A program made the position numbers and the translations under genes. From the IMG/VR virus record IMGVR_UViG_3300009151_000043, positions 1 to 64,000 of that record: DNA of 64,000 bases; one strand, written 5' to 3'. Within the stretch, counting starts at the first letter, position 1; every line of letters starts with the position of its first letter. Under the pieces are notes generated by a model. It worked only from the letters and a program-made list of their open reading frames with translations, made no database searches and was not told the origin of the DNA. Positions 29,536 to 34,863 of the stretch are shown in pieces. Source of the DNA: a virus.

Positions 29536-30104
29536 TCTTTTAAATATTCTACAGTTATTTTAATTTTCTCGTTAAAGATCTCCTGCAGGGCCTCGTTCTT
29601 TTCATCGTCATTACCTTCTTTCTCCCGCATCAAAGCCTGAGGAAATAGTGTTGGAGGTTTATGCATACCATAATCATAGAATATCTGGCCAGCGTATGTT
29701 CGTACCTCTGGAGAAAAATGCAGAGGTTCGCTTCTGATTATGTACGCTTCTGTTAAACCACAAATCAGCTCCTCAGCTTCTAGAGGGTTGAGTTCTTCAA
29801 GGCTATCTGGCTGATGGTTTAACAAGTAGTTTAACGTCTCAAACACAACAATATTATTCTCATACATGTCTGTAGTAAGAATTGTTATTGCTGCTTGCAG
29901 CTTATCGGACTGTAGATCAGATAGCTCACAATCAAAATCTTCCTGCAACTGCGCTTTAAGTACGGTAGGATCCCACTCATAACACTCGTTACCGTATTTT
30001 TTAGTGACTAGCCACAATAGCGCTGTGGCCGGAGCTTTATCGTCTGTAAGTATTTGTTTAGCTGCTTTCATACATAGATACAAAGAACCTCCCTTGGTGC
30101 GCAT
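29523..30104 (-). CDS. Hypothetical protein (possible head-associated)
   Basis: Acidic 193-aa ORF near terminase; true start may be the internal MKAAK. Confidence 0.7.
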   Translation of the reverse strand: MRTKGGSLYLCMKAAKQILTDDKAPATALLWLVTKKYGNECYEWDPTVLKAQLQEDFDCELSDLQSDKLQAAITILTTDMYENNIVVFETLNYLLNHQPDSLEELNPLEAEELICGLTEAYIIRSEPLHFSPEVRTYAGQIFYDYGMHKPPTLFPQALMREKEGNDDEKNEALQEIFNEKIKITVEYLKECTH

Positions 30105-30160
30105 CGTGGAGAGGCGTGGGAGGTGTTGTTTGATTGGTTTGAGTTTGGTTTGAGTTTGGT

Positions 30161-31984: not shown

Positions 31985-33265
31985 ATGTTATTAAACAGCT
32001 TCAACAGTAAAATCAATCTACCTAGTGTAGTATCCAAACTCGGAGTTAACACTTCTGAATATGACTTTGTGAGGCTGCCTATTTTTGGTTGGTATGCCCG
32101 CTCAAAATCAAATGACTTTGTAGGCAACATATTCGACTTCTTCCATATAAACGACTGGCGCAGGCTGTATGGCACAATTTGCAGAGATTTTAGTGACTGC
32201 TTTGATTTTAAGCTACCATACAGTGAGCATGCTGAAAAGAACCTTTTTAAGGATCAAACTAAAATCATGCAATGGCAGTCTGTATGGCTACTCAGTCAGC
32301 AAGAAGCTGAGAGTGCACGGGCCAGGTATCAAGACAAGATTGTGTACTTTACAGATATACTGAATGACGCCGGTATGCCTGAGCTTGTCACTAACGGTTT
32401 TGGCTACCTTACCGACAAGGTACTCAAAAGCTTTCCTAAGCTAGAGTTGGACAATAAATACAAATATAAGAAGACTGTGGTTATTCCCTCGTTCTGCTCA
32501 CCCAAGCATATCTGCTCACTAGAGGTGGCCAGGCTGACAGATATCACTCAAAGAGAGACTGTTTTTCTTAATAGCGAGTATGGCTGGTATGGAAAACAGG
32601 GCGTGGAAGTTGTCAGAGATATCAGTGAGCTAAAAATAAAGGTAGGCAATACTTGGAACTATAAAAACGATTATTGGAACAAGACCACTATCAAGTTGTC
32701 TGAGGCGCTAGGCGCTAGTCAGCTTATCAAGATATGGAGCGAGTCCCGTAACACGACGTTTTCTGAAAAGATAATGGAAAGTATCATCGGTAAGCAGGGG
32801 AATGATGATCTTAAGAACCATGTACCTATGCTCAAGTATGCGCAGGTGCAGGAGCTTGAGAAAGTCAGTGGGCAGCCCCTGTTAGAGTACTGGATGAAGA
32901 GCCGAGAAGAACAATTCAATGTACACGGCAAAACCTACGTCAAAAAAGATAAATCTTATTTCCTGGTTAAAAAGAATGAAGAAGAGCAACTAACCAACTT
33001 CACACTAGATATAAAGGAGATACGTAAAAAAAATGAAGACGAGTTTATTTGGTGCGGAATGATCTACTTTGAAGAGCACGCTGTTCCTTTTGAGATGGAG
33101 GACAGATACTTCATGTCCTGTCACCTGTTTACAAAAGGCATACGTAAAATGTTCCTCAATCTAGGGCTAGGTATCCCGTTCATTAACGAGAAGTATGTAA
33201 GGCAGCTTATCACCATGATTCAGCTCACCTGCAGCAACATCAAGGTTGTTTCTGACAATAGCTAA
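31985..33265 (+). CDS. Hypothetical protein, weakly primase-like
   Basis: 426-aa ORF. INLPSVV...GNIFDF and VVIPSF recall DnaG-type segments, but there are no Zn-finger Cys or TOPRIM acidic motifs. Confidence 0.65.
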   Translation: MLLNSFNSKINLPSVVSKLGVNTSEYDFVRLPIFGWYARSKSNDFVGNIFDFFHINDWRRLYGTICRDFSDCFDFKLPYSEHAEKNLFKDQTKIMQWQSVWLLSQQEAESARARYQDKIVYFTDILNDAGMPELVTNGFGYLTDKVLKSFPKLELDNKYKYKKTVVIPSFCSPKHICSLEVARLTDITQRETVFLNSEYGWYGKQGVEVVRDISELKIKVGNTWNYKNDYWNKTTIKLSEALGASQLIKIWSESRNTTFSEKIMESIIGKQGNDDLKNHVPMLKYAQVQELEKVSGQPLLEYWMKSREEQFNVHGKTYVKKDKSYFLVKKNEEEQLTNFTLDIKEIRKKNEDEFIWCGMIYFEEHAVPFEMEDRYFMSCHLFTKGIRKMFLNLGLGIPFINEKYVRQLITMIQLTCSNIKVVSDNS

Positions 33266-33266
33266 A

Positions 33267-33612
33267 AGAAAGATCGCTGGGTAAACCTTCTCGCCGTGCA
33301 TGCAAACACAGCGAGAAGGCAACCTTTACCCCAACCCGAAAGGGTCCAGGGTATTTATAGACGCCTGGCCGTCTTAGGGCGCAAATTTCTTTGCACCTCC
33401 ACCAGTCCTTGCGGACAATTTATACCTACGGACAAAGCCACCGCAATTCCAGTTTTGGTTTCTTGTTTACTGTAGGTATAAAAGTAAAAAGTGTTCTCCT
33501 TCGTGGTTAGGCGGGCTGCTGGAGAATACAGCCTATGACACAGGATGCCAACAAACCTGTGCACCAAGACACTCACGACTTGTCTTTTTCTTTGCAAAAA
33601 CCAACAAAGAAA
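33267..33612 (-). ncRNA. Candidate structured ncRNA of unknown family, immediately downstream of tmRNA
   Basis: At least 8 helices, two GNRA-capped hairpins, G-U pairs favouring the - strand, complementary ends. Confidence 0.55.
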
Positions 33613-33615
33613 GGG

Positions 33616-34051
33616 GGTGGACCCGAGGGGAGTTGAACCCCTGTCTCTAATACTTTTACAATCAATCACTTACAGCTTATCCGGTTGTTATATATTTCCT
33701 TCTACGGTAAACGGAAAACCTAGAGAAGAATCAAGTAAGCTTTAACTCTGCCTACTACAGCGAGTGGTCTATATCCCACCATTTTTTACAGGAGCTTGCA
33801 GTGTTTTGCAACTGCCCAGTTACCTGAGTCTGGGGTCCGGTACCTGCGAGCAAAGCTCGCTGCGGTTAGGCAGCGAGTGCTTCAGCGTCTTCAAACTCAA
33901 AAGAGTTCAAGATCGCGTCTGCTTCTGCAACGCTAGGCGCATACATGTTAGTGTTTGCGTTTAGGGTTTGTCCAGATTTTTAACGAGGCCAACCAGACTT
34001 CCTCGGCTGAGACTAATTACAACTATACTAGATCGAAACCAGTACGGGCCC
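33616..34051 (-). ncRNA. ssrA: tmRNA
   Basis: 5' GGGCCCGTACTGGTTTCGA. 3' GACAGGGGTTCAACTCCCCTCGGGTCCACC. Acceptor stem GGGCCCG/CGGGTCC with G3-U. pk1 CCGAGG...GGTTGGCCTCGTTAAAAA. Tag frame 33958-33866 ending ALAA-stop. Confidence 0.95.
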
Positions 34052-34083
34052 GAAAGCTACAGAATAGTATTTCTATTCAAATT

Positions 34084-34113
34084 ATTATACCATTAAAACA
34101 GAGGAATATTCAA
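34084..34113 (-). promoter_or_regulatory. sigma70-type promoter for tmRNA
   Basis: TTGAAT-18 nt-(TGg)TATAAT, 32 nt upstream of the mature 5' end. Confidence 0.65.
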
Positions 34114-34167
34114 CTAGGTGCGAAAAACTCCATAGCAAAGAATTATACCAGGAACAGCCAATATAAG

Positions 34168-34863
34168 CTAGGATGAGAAAAACACAGCGTCGTTAGTTGC
34201 TGGTGTCTTGCCTACTGTGTTCGGCTTATTGGGCCACGTCTCTTCCACAGTTGACCTGTTGGGAGAAGTACCAATCTGTGAAACCGACTCAGGGTTAGGT
34301 GAAAAGTTGCCATATTCTATATTAAAGCATTGGTTCAACACTACATATTTTCTATCAAACCTACCCTTGCCTTCTCCTACGCGCTCTTGAATAAGGACGG
34401 TGATATAGTAGGTGCCGGCAAAGAAAGTGCTTGTAGCTGCTGAGGGAATCCACACCTCATAATAGCCTGCATCTCCAGACATCTTGTATATGCCAGTCTC
34501 CAGACGCCCTTCCCACAATACTGTAGCTGCCCTGGGGCTGGTCTTTACAAAGACTTTAACTTCGTAATGTGTGGAATCTACAGGAGCACCGTCATGAAAC
34601 AGAAAAACATCATAAACGATATCTTCGCCCTGATAGAACATGTCTGGGTTCGTATTGCTTCCCTGCTCAAAGGGTATTCCTGGGATACCGTCCAAAATAA
34701 TGGTGTAGGGCTCAGGAGGACTGTTCTGCTCTTTCCTGGCACGCATTTGAGACGACTGTAATGCTGCAAGATTGTCTATAGCGGCCTTATAGACACTTTG
34801 TGAATCTCCCCCAGCATCCTGGGTAAAAAACTGAGGTATTACATCGTCCTGCATATTATACAC
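34168..34863 (-). CDS. Hypothetical structural protein (beta-rich, Ig-like core)
   Basis: FYQGEDIVYD...GYYEVWIP..T..F.AGTYY; last gene of the structural cluster. Confidence 0.6.
   Translation of the reverse strand: MYNMQDDVIPQFFTQDAGGDSQSVYKAAIDNLAALQSSQMRARKEQNSPPEPYTIILDGIPGIPFEQGSNTNPDMFYQGEDIVYDVFLFHDGAPVDSTHYEVKVFVKTSPRAATVLWEGRLETGIYKMSGDAGYYEVWIPSAATSTFFAGTYYITVLIQERVGEGKGRFDRKYVVLNQCFNIEYGNFSPNPESVSQIGTSPNRSTVEETWPNKPNTVGKTPATNDAVFFSS

What the first reader, a model, noticed from the sequence alone, without database searches (positions are those of the whole stretch)
33267..33612. Unassigned ~340-nt highly structured RNA directly downstream of the phage tmRNA
Seen on the - strand: GCACAGG/CCUGUGU; GGCUG/CAGCC whose loop UUCUCC can pair with downstream GGAGAA (H-type pseudoknot); an 11-bp UUUAUACCUAC/GUAGGUAUAAA stem; GUCC-GCAA-GGAC and GUGCAAA-GAAA-UUUGCGC GNRA hairpins; CCAGG/CCUGG; ACCC/GGGU; and a long GGGUAAA..CCUUCUCGC/GCGAGAAGG..UUUACCC arm. 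Possible long-range pairs are GUCUUGG/CUAAGAC and 5' AAAGAAA..GUCG with 3' CGAU..UUUCUUU. G-U pairs favour the tmRNA strand. It is the only long non-coding tract here besides the tmRNA, the intron and the divergent promoter region. Inference: a co-transcribed ncRNA released by tmRNA 3' processing, possibly a new class.
Basis: partly seen in the sequence, partly recalled or inferred. Interest (0 to 1): 0.75.

Follow-up and report, generated by a model that had tools for sequence, protein, structure and literature searches.

The report
Knotted RNA cassettes behind phage tmRNA
The 346-base gap behind this giant phage's tmRNA gene is real folded non-coding RNA, but it is a string of separate swappable RNA modules rather than one molecule, and one module belongs to an undescribed double-pseudoknot RNA family shared by many uncultured phages.

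Summary
The tract (33267-33612, minus strand) is non-coding and folds far better than shuffles. It is not one ~340-nt RNA. It has four parts:
- Module A (33612-33494) is a double-pseudoknot RNA with the conserved words AAGUCGUGAGUG and UAACCACGA. I found 24 distinct copies in unrelated uncultured phages. All five helices covary. About a third of the copies touch tRNA or tmRNA genes, and others lie between packaging genes.
- Hairpin B (33482-33419) is unique to this phage.
- Module C (33416-33346) is two hairpins plus an H-type pseudoknot. It is confined to this jumbo-phage group, and in two relatives it looks like a stand-alone gene with a consensus promoter and a terminator.
- The operon's terminal hairpin arm (33331-33279).

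The nearest relative has a 91% identical tmRNA, but an odd tRNA-like gene sits where A and B are. No Rfam family matches; Pistol is a partial look-alike only. Function is unknown. My best guess is that these are small stable RNAs cut from the tmRNA precursor, like T4 species 1 and 2 RNAs. The scan noted another pseudoknotted RNA beside a phage tmRNA before (e1-5703573); I did not test whether it is the same family.

The parts
33615..34051 (-). phage tmRNA gene, the upstream neighbour and probable source of the transcript; it ends ..GGGUCCACC followed by C
   Evidence: Rfam RF00023, 118.2 bits, E 1.4e-45, full model 1-374. ARAGORN did not call it.
34084..34113 (-). promoter-like site TTGAAT-18-TATAAT with TG, about 30 nt upstream of the tmRNA 5' end
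   Evidence: Consensus scan, 10 of 12 matches. The same TGGTATAAT type precedes the tmRNA in relatives. Function is inferred.
33587..33612 (-). hairpin P0 (UUUCUUUG / CAAAGAAA), directly after the tmRNA 3' end and directly before module A
   Evidence: Sequence. By eye, a variable hairpin sits in this position in most module A copies; I did not count this formally.
33494..33586 (-). module A core, a double-pseudoknot RNA. P1 is 33586-82 / 33570-66 and encloses the loop AAGUCGUGAGU (33581-71). P2 is 33565-62 / 33513-10. Variable hairpin X is 33561-34. Hairpin Y is 33533-28 / 33519-14. PK1 pairs loop UCGUG(A)GU with ACCACGA inside UAACCACGA (33509-01). PK2 pairs the Y loop UUCUCC (33526-21) with GGAGAA (33499-94).
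   Evidence: 24 distinct homologues. On 18 aligned sequences, 92.9% of cells are paired against 76.9% in shuffles, 20 of 28 pairs change on both sides, and the covariation score is 0.314 against 0.132 (0 of 500 shuffles reach it; slid controls give 0.073 or less). PK2 complementarity of each copy's own loop and tail is 5-7 nt in 15 of 15, against a cross-pair mean of 2.5. Model R1 finds a single copy in the virus record.
33419..33482 (-). hairpin B, an 11-bp perfect stem UUUAUACCUAC / GUAGGUAUAAA with a weakly paired interior, filling the space between modules A and C
   Evidence: Present in the sequence. It is unique in the window and no homologue was found in any relative. L007 and L150 have only 9-14 nt at this place.
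33346..33416 (-). module C. H1 is GUCC-GCAA-GGAC (33416-05). A single-stranded UGGUGGAG follows (33404-397). H2 has a GAAA loop (33396-79). Then comes an H-type pseudoknot: S1 AGACG/CGUCU (33374-70 / 33363-59), loop CCAGG (33368-64), A-rich linker AUAAAUAC (33358-51), and CCUGG (33350-46), followed by ACC.
   Evidence: Homologues are L013, L010, L003/L005, L014, L007/L154, L150 and L224. In S1, 4 of 5 pairs change on both sides. S2 has compensatory changes in L014 (CCGAG/CUCGG) and L224 (GCCAGA/UCUGGC). The covariation score is 0.317 against 0.160 (0 of 500). A weak partial Pistol match covers 33329-33374 (19.9 bits).
33279..33341 (-). trailer UUUCGGGUUGG plus a long terminal hairpin arm (GGGUAAAGGUUGCCUUCUCGC ... 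GCGAGAAGGUUUACCC). This is the probable operon terminator, shared with convergent ORF426.
   Evidence: The strongest local fold (-36.3 kcal/mol, z -5.5). A comparable strong hairpin ends the RNA array next to the ORF426 stop in every relative, with a U-run in several (L003, L006, L011). In the window it fails the U-run criterion.
31985..33265 (+). convergent 426-aa ORF of unknown function that bounds the tract; it is the conserved anchor used to find relatives
   Evidence: No Pfam or PHROG match. 119 homologues, all named hypothetical. The fold prediction has low confidence, and the best fold match has E 0.04.

Best explanation
The tract is the variable cassette region of a phage tmRNA/tRNA operon, not a single RNA. 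Transcription most likely starts at the TGnTATAAT promoter upstream of the tmRNA. It would run through the tmRNA, module A, hairpin B and module C, and end at the long terminal hairpin beside the stop codon of the convergent ORF (inferred from sequence signals and synteny). Each module folds on its own; this is shown by covariation and by each module occurring alone elsewhere. Module A is a member of an undescribed, virome-wide double-pseudoknot family. Module C is a lineage-restricted RNA of two hairpins plus an H-type pseudoknot. In two relatives module C sits behind a consensus promoter sequence and ahead of a U-run terminator hairpin, which I read as a stand-alone small-RNA gene. My best guess for how they work is inferred, not shown. 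The precursor is cut by the enzymes that mature the tmRNA and tRNAs, and the knotted domains survive as small stable RNAs, as T4 species 1 and 2 RNAs do in the T4 tRNA cluster. In both modules the 3' end is a stacked pseudoknot helix followed by A, often ACC, like the ends of this phage group's tmRNA and tRNAs. They may therefore be handled as tRNA-like ends. Module C also exposes UGGUGGA(G), the complement of the universal tmRNA / tRNA-Ala 3' end UCCACCA, so it could bind that end.
For: The tract is non-coding and strongly folded. The tmRNA and a promoter-like site lie upstream, and no terminator-like site occurs inside. Modules occur separately in relatives: nhmmer matches split the tract into pieces, as do the spacer maps. 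The nearest relative, L224, has a 90.9% identical tmRNA, no similarity across window 33233-33604, and a tRNA-like gene in place of A+B. In other relatives the same slot holds a tRNA(CAU), an intron-bearing tRNA, or nothing. Module A has 24 distinct copies, with covariation in P1, P2, Y, PK1 and PK2. The PK1 types are UCGUG/CACGA x14, CCGUG/CACGG x7, UCGUG/CGCGA x2 and UUGCG/CGCAA x1. Module A sits next to tRNA or tmRNA genes in the window, L007/L154, L150, L019, L197 and L203/L215. Module C covaries. In L003/L005 it follows a TGGTATAAT promoter and precedes a U-run terminator, and no tmRNA is found there at Rfam gathering score. After PK2 the next base is A in 16 of 20 module A copies, and ACC follows in 6-7 of 20. 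After S2 of module C, A follows in 8 of 8 and ACC in 3 of 8. UGGUGGAG(G) is present in the six tmRNA-linked module C variants and absent from the tmRNA-less L003/L005. T4 has the same layout of tRNA-Arg, rnaD, rnaC.
Against: There is no expression or end-mapping data. Metatranscriptome contigs cover only parts of the tmRNA, not the tract. The terminal hairpin in the window lacks a U-run. Two thirds of module A copies are not next to tRNA genes; they sit between protein genes such as terS/terL, terL/portal, or after pnkp. That fits a cis-acting mRNA element or a ribozyme at least as well as a tRNA-like passenger RNA. ACC follows the knot in only about a third of copies. There is no T-loop or tRNA-model signal in the tract. 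The UGGUGGAG word does not track the phage's own tmRNA end, which is GUCCACC in the window. T4 rnaC and rnaD are not homologous to module A.
Confidence: 0.6

Rival explanations
1. Module A is a new class of self-cleaving ribozyme. It would cut polycistronic phage transcripts, and here it would free the tmRNA 3' trailer and separate the downstream RNAs. This concerns function and is compatible with the mosaic architecture.
For: It is about 95-160 nt long, with two pseudoknots and a nearly invariant core of some 20 nt, while the other helices vary freely. It is sporadic and confined to viromes. It sits co-directionally in intergenic spacers of operons and next to tRNAs, which is the pattern known for hammerhead, twister, pistol and the tRNA-linked theta ribozymes (PMC10879173). 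A true Pistol ribozyme (40.9 bits) and group I introns occur in relatives.
Against: No Rfam ribozyme model matches even at E up to 10. The order of strands fits neither the HDV-like nor the pistol topology. Most of the conserved core is a helix (PK1), not junction nucleotides. There is no cleavage evidence.
Confidence: 0.2
2. Module A is a cis-acting mechanical knot that stops exoribonucleases or sets processing points, so protecting the neighbouring RNA. This would be a phage counterpart of viral xrRNAs.
For: The topology resembles xrRNAs. There is a three-way junction (P2, X, Y), the apical loop of one arm pairs with the 3' tail (PK2), and the strand 5' of the junction is pinned to the linker inside that ring (PK1). 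All of this is backed by covariation. The 3' end usually lies 10-60 nt upstream of the next start codon or tRNA.
Against: The resemblance is topological only. No sequence or model match was found and no nuclease assay exists. xrRNAs are known from eukaryotic RNA viruses, not phages. The hosts, and whether they have RNase J, are unknown.
Confidence: 0.1
3. One reading: one ~340-nt structured ncRNA of a new class, closed by long-range pairs and released as a unit.
For: The whole tract folds with z -5.26, and the MFE model closes it with 5'/3' pairs. All the parts lie on one strand with no internal terminator-like site.
Against: The parts occur separately in relatives, and A+B is swapped for a tRNA-like gene in the closest relative. 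The proposed long-range partners have better local partners that covary. One proposed partner lies in the coding end of ORF426. Hairpin B has no homologue.
Confidence: 0.06
4. There is nothing functional here: just spacer and terminator hairpins between two convergent transcription units, or the 3' UTR of ORF426 on the plus strand.
For: The plus strand also folds well (z -4.96). Several relatives have only a 72-83 nt spacer with a single terminator hairpin. The last arm is terminator-like.
Against: Modules A and C are conserved with compensatory changes across phages that share nothing else. G-U pairs, above all the closing U.G of P1, would be A-C mismatches on the plus strand. The modules share the strand of adjacent tRNA genes in unrelated phages.
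Confidence: 0.04

Closest known systems
T4 species 1 and species 2 RNAs (rnaC, rnaD), small stable RNAs of the T4 tRNA cluster
   Same: They are small structured RNAs of unknown function encoded directly downstream of phage tRNA genes, on the same strand, with no ORF (T4 layout: tRNA-Arg, rnaD, rnaC). Their ends resemble tRNA ends: in the T4 sequence, rnaD ends ..GCACC with A next.
   Different: There is no sequence or model similarity: nhmmer and model R1 find nothing in the T4 region. The T4 RNAs are not reported to have the double-pseudoknot core (from my own knowledge). The function of the T4 RNAs is itself unknown, so the comparison is by context only.
Pistol self-cleaving ribozyme (Rfam RF02679)
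   Same: The pseudoknot of module C has a 5-bp hairpin whose 6-nt loop pairs with a strand that follows an AUAAAUA-type linker, as in pistol P1, linker and pseudoknot. cmscan aligns 33329-33374 to it. A true pistol is present in relative L015.
   Different: The score is 19.9 bits against a gathering score of 34.5. The linker runs straight into the pseudoknot strand, so P2 and the conserved internal loop are missing, and no G-U cleavage-site context is seen.
Theta (minimal HDV-like) ribozymes next to phage tRNAs (PMC10879173)
   Same: These are phage RNA elements placed directly 3' of tRNA genes and proposed to mature the tRNA 3' trailer. They set a precedent for structured RNAs that punctuate phage tRNA arrays.
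   Different: Theta ribozymes have the nested HDV fold and lie within 5 nt of the tRNA end. Module A has a different strand order (P1a, PK1a, P1b, P2a, X, Y with PK2a, P2b, PK1b, PK2b). It is separated from the tRNA or tmRNA by a hairpin, and two thirds of its copies are not near a tRNA.
Exoribonuclease-resistant RNAs (xrRNAs) of flaviviruses and plant viruses
   Same: They have a three-way junction plus a loop-to-3'-tail pseudoknot plus a second pseudoknot that holds the 5' strand, and they are compact, about 70-100 nt.
   Different: They are known only in eukaryotic RNA viruses. No homology was detected, and resistance has not been tested here.
tRNA-like structures with a pseudoknotted acceptor arm (TYMV type)
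   Same: A 3'-proximal pseudoknot forms a stacked helix that is followed by A or ACC. The elements sit among tRNA and tmRNA genes and can be swapped for them.
   Different: No T-loop, D-loop or anticodon-arm equivalents were recognised. ACC is present in only about a third of copies. No tRNA model matches.

Membership tests
Any Rfam 15 family (whole tract) | Covariance-model score at or above the family's gathering score | tested here: not met
   In the window, only tmRNA and abiF reach gathering score. A permissive scan of 32900-34200 (E up to 10) gives only a weak Pistol hit inside the tract. Three more module A copies in L259 and L256 gave nothing.
Pistol ribozyme (RF02679) | Score at or above 34.5 bits | tested here: not met
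   19.9 bits, E 0.64, at 33329-33374.
Pistol ribozyme (RF02679) | P1 hairpin whose loop forms a pseudoknot with a downstream strand, after an A-rich linker | tested here: met
   AGACG-GCCAGG-CGUCU, then AUAAAUAC, then CCUGG. S1 and S2 covary in relatives.
Pistol ribozyme (RF02679) | P2 and P3 helices framing the conserved internal loop and the G-U cleavage site | tested here: not met
   The linker is followed at once by the pseudoknot strand, so there is no P2 5' strand. The cmscan alignment deletes these model positions.
HDV-like / theta ribozymes | Nested double pseudoknot (P1, P2, P3, P1.1, P4) that starts within about 5 nt of the tRNA 3' end | tested here: not met
   The strand order of module A, derived from covariation, differs. 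Hairpin P0 (26 nt) lies between the tmRNA end and module A. No HDV-family hit appears in the permissive Rfam scan. Criteria are from PMC10879173.
tRNA-like structure with pseudoknotted acceptor arm | Terminal stacked pseudoknot helix followed by a discriminator base and CC(A) | tested here: inconclusive
   In module A, A follows in 16 of 20 and ACC in 6-7 of 20. In module C, A follows in 8 of 8 and ACC in 3 of 8.
tRNA-like structure with pseudoknotted acceptor arm | T-arm/elbow or overall tRNA-model similarity | tested here: not met
   ARAGORN finds nothing in the window. No tRNA-clan hit falls inside the tract.
tRNA-like structure with pseudoknotted acceptor arm | Processing by RNase P or Z, CCA addition or aminoacylation | not testable with these tools
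   This needs enzymology or end-mapping. RNA runs held only contigs and none covered the tract.
T4 rnaC / rnaD type stable RNAs | Encoded in a phage tRNA or tmRNA operon, downstream and co-oriented, with no ORF | tested here: met
T4 rnaC / rnaD type stable RNAs | Sequence or structure homology to rnaC or rnaD | tested here: not met
   nhmmer with the module A profile, and model R1, find nothing in T4 68000-76000.
Riboswitch | Consistent downstream gene class and an expression platform (alternative pairing with a terminator or RBS) | tested here: not met
   The flanking genes are unrelated: terS, terL, portal, pnkp, RecT-like, methyltransferase, tRNAs. Tail-to-body complementarity is no better than for mismatched partners (own mean 6.3, cross mean 6.7).
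Intrinsic terminator (last arm, 33279-33331) | G+C-rich hairpin followed by a U-run | tested here: inconclusive
   The hairpin is strong (z -5.5), but the scan finds no U-run. The positional equivalents in L003, L006 and L011 have U-runs.
xrRNA-like knot | Three-way junction with a loop-to-3'-tail pseudoknot and a 5'-strand pseudoknot | tested here: met
   P2, X and Y plus PK2 and PK1 are all supported by covariation. This is a topological resemblance only.
xrRNA-like knot | Blocks an exoribonuclease | not testable with these tools
   This needs nuclease assays.

The most novel reading that the evidence does not exclude
Module A, the AAGUCGUGAGUG / UAACCACGA double-pseudoknot RNA, is a new functional RNA class that phages use to punctuate tRNA, tmRNA and late-gene transcripts. 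It would be either a new self-cleaving ribozyme or the first xrRNA-like nuclease-stopping knot in DNA phages. Separately, module C would be a small RNA that grips the UCCACCA 3' end of tmRNA or tRNA-Ala.
Probability: 0.25. Interest if true: 0.85.

Novelty: new variant of a known kind. Interest (0 to 1): 0.6.

Why it matters
Phage tRNA clusters have been known for fifty years to carry extra stable RNAs of unknown function (T4 species 1 and 2). This locus shows that the slot behind a phage tmRNA is a swap site. tRNAs, an intron-bearing tRNA and at least two kinds of knotted RNA replace one another there.

One of these, module A, is a compact double pseudoknot with a nearly invariant 20-nt core. 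It has 24 distinct copies in otherwise unrelated uncultured phages and almost none in 185,579 bacterial and archaeal species genomes. That is a well-defined, testable candidate for a new ribozyme, a nuclease-resistant element or a tRNA-end mimic.

Module C carries an exposed complement of the universal tmRNA 3' end, which suggests a direct RNA-RNA link to trans-translation. Each idea can be tested with short in vitro transcripts.

Tried and rejected
- **tRNA and Rfam scans.** ARAGORN finds no tRNA or tmRNA in the window. Rfam gives no family for the tract.
- **BLAST against 50,697 GenBank phages.** Neither the tract nor module A from two other phages gives a meaningful hit.
- **Pattern for module C in viral contigs.** It returned more than 120 hits, almost all glycine-rich coding sequence. 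Only the window and L013 pass the stem test.
- **Module A pattern in bacterial and archaeal genomes.** Of 20 hits, nearly all are chance, lacking GAGUG, P1 and PK2. One weak candidate remains, the Rubritalea MAG L176 (22.6 bits).
- **RNA-seq.** Three lake metatranscriptomes hold contigs for parts of the tmRNA only. The tract is uncovered, which is no evidence either way.
- **Y-RNA or RNA-repair link.** The held half of the genome has no TROVE, RtcB, PNKP or RNA ligase.
- **T4 rnaC and rnaD.** They are not homologous to module A.
- **Theta / HDV-like fold.** The topology differs.
- **Riboswitch platform.** Tail-to-body pairing is no better than chance.
- **Hairpin B as a repeated regulatory motif.** There is a single copy only. 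Its GGTATAAAT is a poor match to the phage's TGGTATAAT promoters.
- **ORF426 as an RNA enzyme.** It has no domains, the model has pLDDT 57, and the best fold hit has E 0.04 (helicase/Rep), which is uninformative.
- **ORFs inside the tract.** None has a family match.
- **Literature.** Searches for the conserved words found nothing relevant. The 10,006-candidate phage RNA catalogue (PMC10690425) may contain module A, but its supplements are not held.

Full report
**What is at the coordinates**

The window is the first 64 kb of a 95-kb IMG/VR virus record judged about 49% complete, which points to a jumbo phage. Rfam places a complete tmRNA at 33615-34051 on the minus strand (118 bits). A convergent 426-aa ORF ends at 33265. 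The flagged 346 nt fill the gap between them.

The minus strand folds to -131.5 kcal/mol (z -5.26) and the plus strand to -114.5 (z -4.96). ORFs that cross the tract have no family match. A promoter-like TTGAAT-18-TATAAT with TG lies about 30 nt upstream of the tmRNA. No terminator-like site is found inside the tract.

**Relatives show a mosaic**

I used the convergent ORF as an anchor and collected 15, then 19, then 31 syntenic loci from viral and metagenome contigs. Gene order around the locus is conserved, but the RNA content between the ORF stop and the tmRNA is not.
- Some relatives have only a 72-83 nt spacer holding one strong hairpin.
- Others carry a tRNA(CAU), the same tRNA split by a group I intron, or other structured segments.

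Profile searches break the window's tract into pieces that occur separately.
- Bases 22-122 of the tract match L004.
- Bases 207-327 match L013.
- Bases 239-337 match L003/L005.
- L007, L154 and L150 have the first and third pieces with only 9-14 nt between them.

The closest relative is L224. Its tmRNA is 90.9% identical over 452 nt, yet it has no detectable similarity across window 33233-33604. There the tmRNA is followed by an unusual 99-nt tRNA-like gene, a variant of the third piece, and the terminal hairpin. The tract is therefore a series of cassettes, not one RNA.

**Module A (33612-33494 including the leading hairpin P0)**

Three jumbo-phage copies shared the words AAGUCGUGAGU and UAACCACGA. 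A pattern scan of viral contigs with these words returned 13 stretches, and all showed the same architecture. Relaxed scans added further lineages. One more copy turned up by synteny alone (L236). The tally is 24 distinct sequences.

The fold has these elements:
- P1 is a 4-5 bp stem that encloses the 11-nt loop AAGUCGUGAGU.
- P2 continues directly from P1.
- X is a variable hairpin.
- Y is a hairpin of 5-8 bp with a loop of 7-10 nt.
- PK1 pairs loop UCGUG(A)GU with ACCACGA.
- PK2 pairs nearly the whole Y loop with the 5-7 nt that begin one or two bases after PK1.

On an 18-sequence alignment I counted the full structure, including both pseudoknots, which were not part of the search model.
- 92.9% of cells are paired, against 76.9% in shuffles.
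- 20 of 28 pairs change on both sides.
- The covariation score is 0.314 against 0.132 (0 of 500 shuffles reach it).
- Sliding the partners drops the score to 0.073 or less.

PK2 is complementary in every copy (5-7 nt), while loops and tails from different copies match by only 2.5 nt on average. PK1 is almost invariant in sequence but still covaries: UCGUG/CACGA in 14 copies, CCGUG/CACGG in 7, UCGUG/CGCGA in 2 and UUGCG/CGCAA in 1. Pattern hits with mismatched partners lack P1 and PK2 and are chance. The closing U.G of P1 in most copies fixes the strand as that of the tmRNA.

**Where module A occurs**

It follows a tmRNA here. It follows tRNA-Met in L007, L154 and L150, tRNA-Arg(UCU) in L019, and tRNA-Met plus tRNA-Thr in L197. 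It precedes tRNA-Arg(UCU) by a few bases in L203 and L215. Elsewhere it lies in co-directional intergenic spacers:
- between the small and large terminase genes (L026, L027, L029),
- between the large terminase and portal genes (L265),
- after pnkp (L019, L021, L025),
- after a RecT-like gene (L017),
- upstream of a methyltransferase (L255).

Its 3' end is usually 10-60 nt from the next start codon or tRNA. It is single-copy in this virus record. It is essentially absent from one genome for each of 185,579 bacterial and archaeal species, and BLAST does not find it in GenBank phages. Tail-to-body pairing is no better than chance, and there is no common downstream gene, so a riboswitch is unlikely.

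**Module C (33416-33346)**

The order is H1, then single-stranded UGGUGGAG, then H2 (with a GAAA loop in the window, L013, L224 and the L007 group), then an H-type pseudoknot: a 5-bp stem, a loop (G/A)CCAGG, an 8-10 nt A-rich linker and CCUGG. Homologues exist only in this phage group.

S1 changes on both sides in 4 of 5 pairs. S2 has compensatory changes in L014 (CCGAG/CUCGG) and L224 (GCCAGA/UCUGGC). The covariation score is 0.317 against 0.160 (0 of 500).

In L003/L005 no tmRNA is found at Rfam gathering score. There module C sits directly behind a perfect TGGTATAAT promoter of the phage's usual type and ahead of a U-run terminator. I read that as a free-standing small-RNA gene.

The weak Pistol hit (19.9 bits) reflects only the shared hairpin, linker and pseudoknot geometry. 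P2, the internal loop and the cleavage context are absent.

UGGUGGA is the exact complement of UCCACCA, the 3' end that all tmRNAs and tRNA-Ala share (from established knowledge of the G3.U70 identity element). The word is present in the six tmRNA-linked variants and absent from L003/L005. However, it does not co-vary with the phage's own acceptor end, so this stays a hypothesis.

**Hairpin B and the terminal arm**

B (33482-33419) has no homologue anywhere, and only one copy exists in the window. It may be a spacer or a processing hairpin; that is inference only.

The last arm (33331-33279) is the strongest local fold (z -5.5). It corresponds in position to the strong hairpin that ends the array in every relative, several with U-runs. 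In the window it lacks the U-run, so calling it a terminator is an inference.

**How it most likely works**

Shown: the modules fold independently, occur independently, and can stand in for tRNA genes at this slot.

Inferred: they are transcribed with the tmRNA and cut out as small stable RNAs by the machinery that matures the tmRNA and tRNAs, as in the T4 cluster of tRNA-Arg, rnaD and rnaC.

Both modules end in a stacked pseudoknot helix followed by A, and by ACC in about a third of copies. These resemble the ACC-plus-non-A ends of this group's tmRNA and tRNAs. That fits a tRNA-like end, but it is not diagnostic.

For module A I hold three functional readings open, with rough odds: a tRNA-like or protein-binding stable RNA (about 0.35), a self-cleaving ribozyme (about 0.2), and a nuclease-stopping knot with xrRNA-like topology (about 0.1).

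No expression data could be obtained. Metatranscriptome contigs cover only parts of the tmRNA.

**Novelty**

No Rfam family, no literature hit for the conserved words and no named motif corresponds to module A or module C. A catalogue of 10,006 unnamed phage RNA candidates (PMC10690425) may include them, but I could not check it.

The kind of thing, extra structured RNAs riding in phage tRNA operons, is known from T4. The folds are new.

I did not test whether it is related.

Noticed in passing
window 30087-30123 (-): An abiF RNA motif (Rfam RF03085, 47.2 bits, above its gathering score) lies at the start of a 193-aa ORF with no family match. The same motif is kept at the syntenic place in relatives L002, L160, L161 and L162.
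   Followed up: no
L006/L016 5930-6139, L157 4406-4615 (-): In several relatives the tmRNA is followed by a tRNA(CAU) whose anticodon loop is split by a group I intron (Rfam RF00028, 68.7 bits). L010 and L153 have the intron-less tRNA at the same place. A 184-aa ORF on the opposite strand sits next to the intron-bearing copy in L006.
   Followed up: partly
L015 8517-8584 (-): A bona fide Pistol ribozyme (40.9 bits against a gathering score of 34.5) occurs in a relative of this phage, about 3 kb from the RNA island.
   Followed up: no
L007 5270-5720, L150, L151, L154 (- strand, between module C and the terminal hairpin): Four relatives share a further conserved non-coding stretch of about 450 nt with many hairpins, which I called module D. 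Nothing in it reaches an Rfam gathering score.
   Followed up: no
L224 (about 99 nt, directly after its tmRNA) and L150 4499-4597 (-): These are unusual tRNA-like genes of about 99 nt. The acceptor, D and T arms look normal, but a long extra helix replaces a normal anticodon loop. Rfam tRNA gives only 31.4 bits in L150 and ARAGORN misses both. They could be tRNAs with a small intron, or tRNA mimics.
   Followed up: no
window 33615-34051 (-): The tmRNA scores 118 bits in Rfam but ARAGORN does not call it. It encodes ACC followed by C rather than CCA. Near-identical pieces of it appear in lake metatranscriptome contigs at low depth.
   Followed up: partly
L256 272-337 and 857-927 (+): Two matches to the CCGUG-subtype core words of module A lie 585 nt apart in one 90-kb viral contig, with small ORFs between them. 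Only the first passed my structural filter, and its PK2 is weak. If both are real, this would be the only case of more than one copy in a locus.
   Followed up: no
L240 (- strand, between its tmRNA and the terminal hairpin): This relative carries yet another, unrelated set of stems (CAGUACC/GGUACUG, UUGUUUUAC/GUAAAACAA) in the same slot, which underlines how plastic the slot is.
   Followed up: no
L163, L164 (distant relatives, - strand next to the ORF426 homologue): The neighbouring gene encodes a von Willebrand A-type motif (LDDSGSMM), which recalls Ro60/Rsr-like proteins. No TROVE domain was found in the window's own record.
   Followed up: partly
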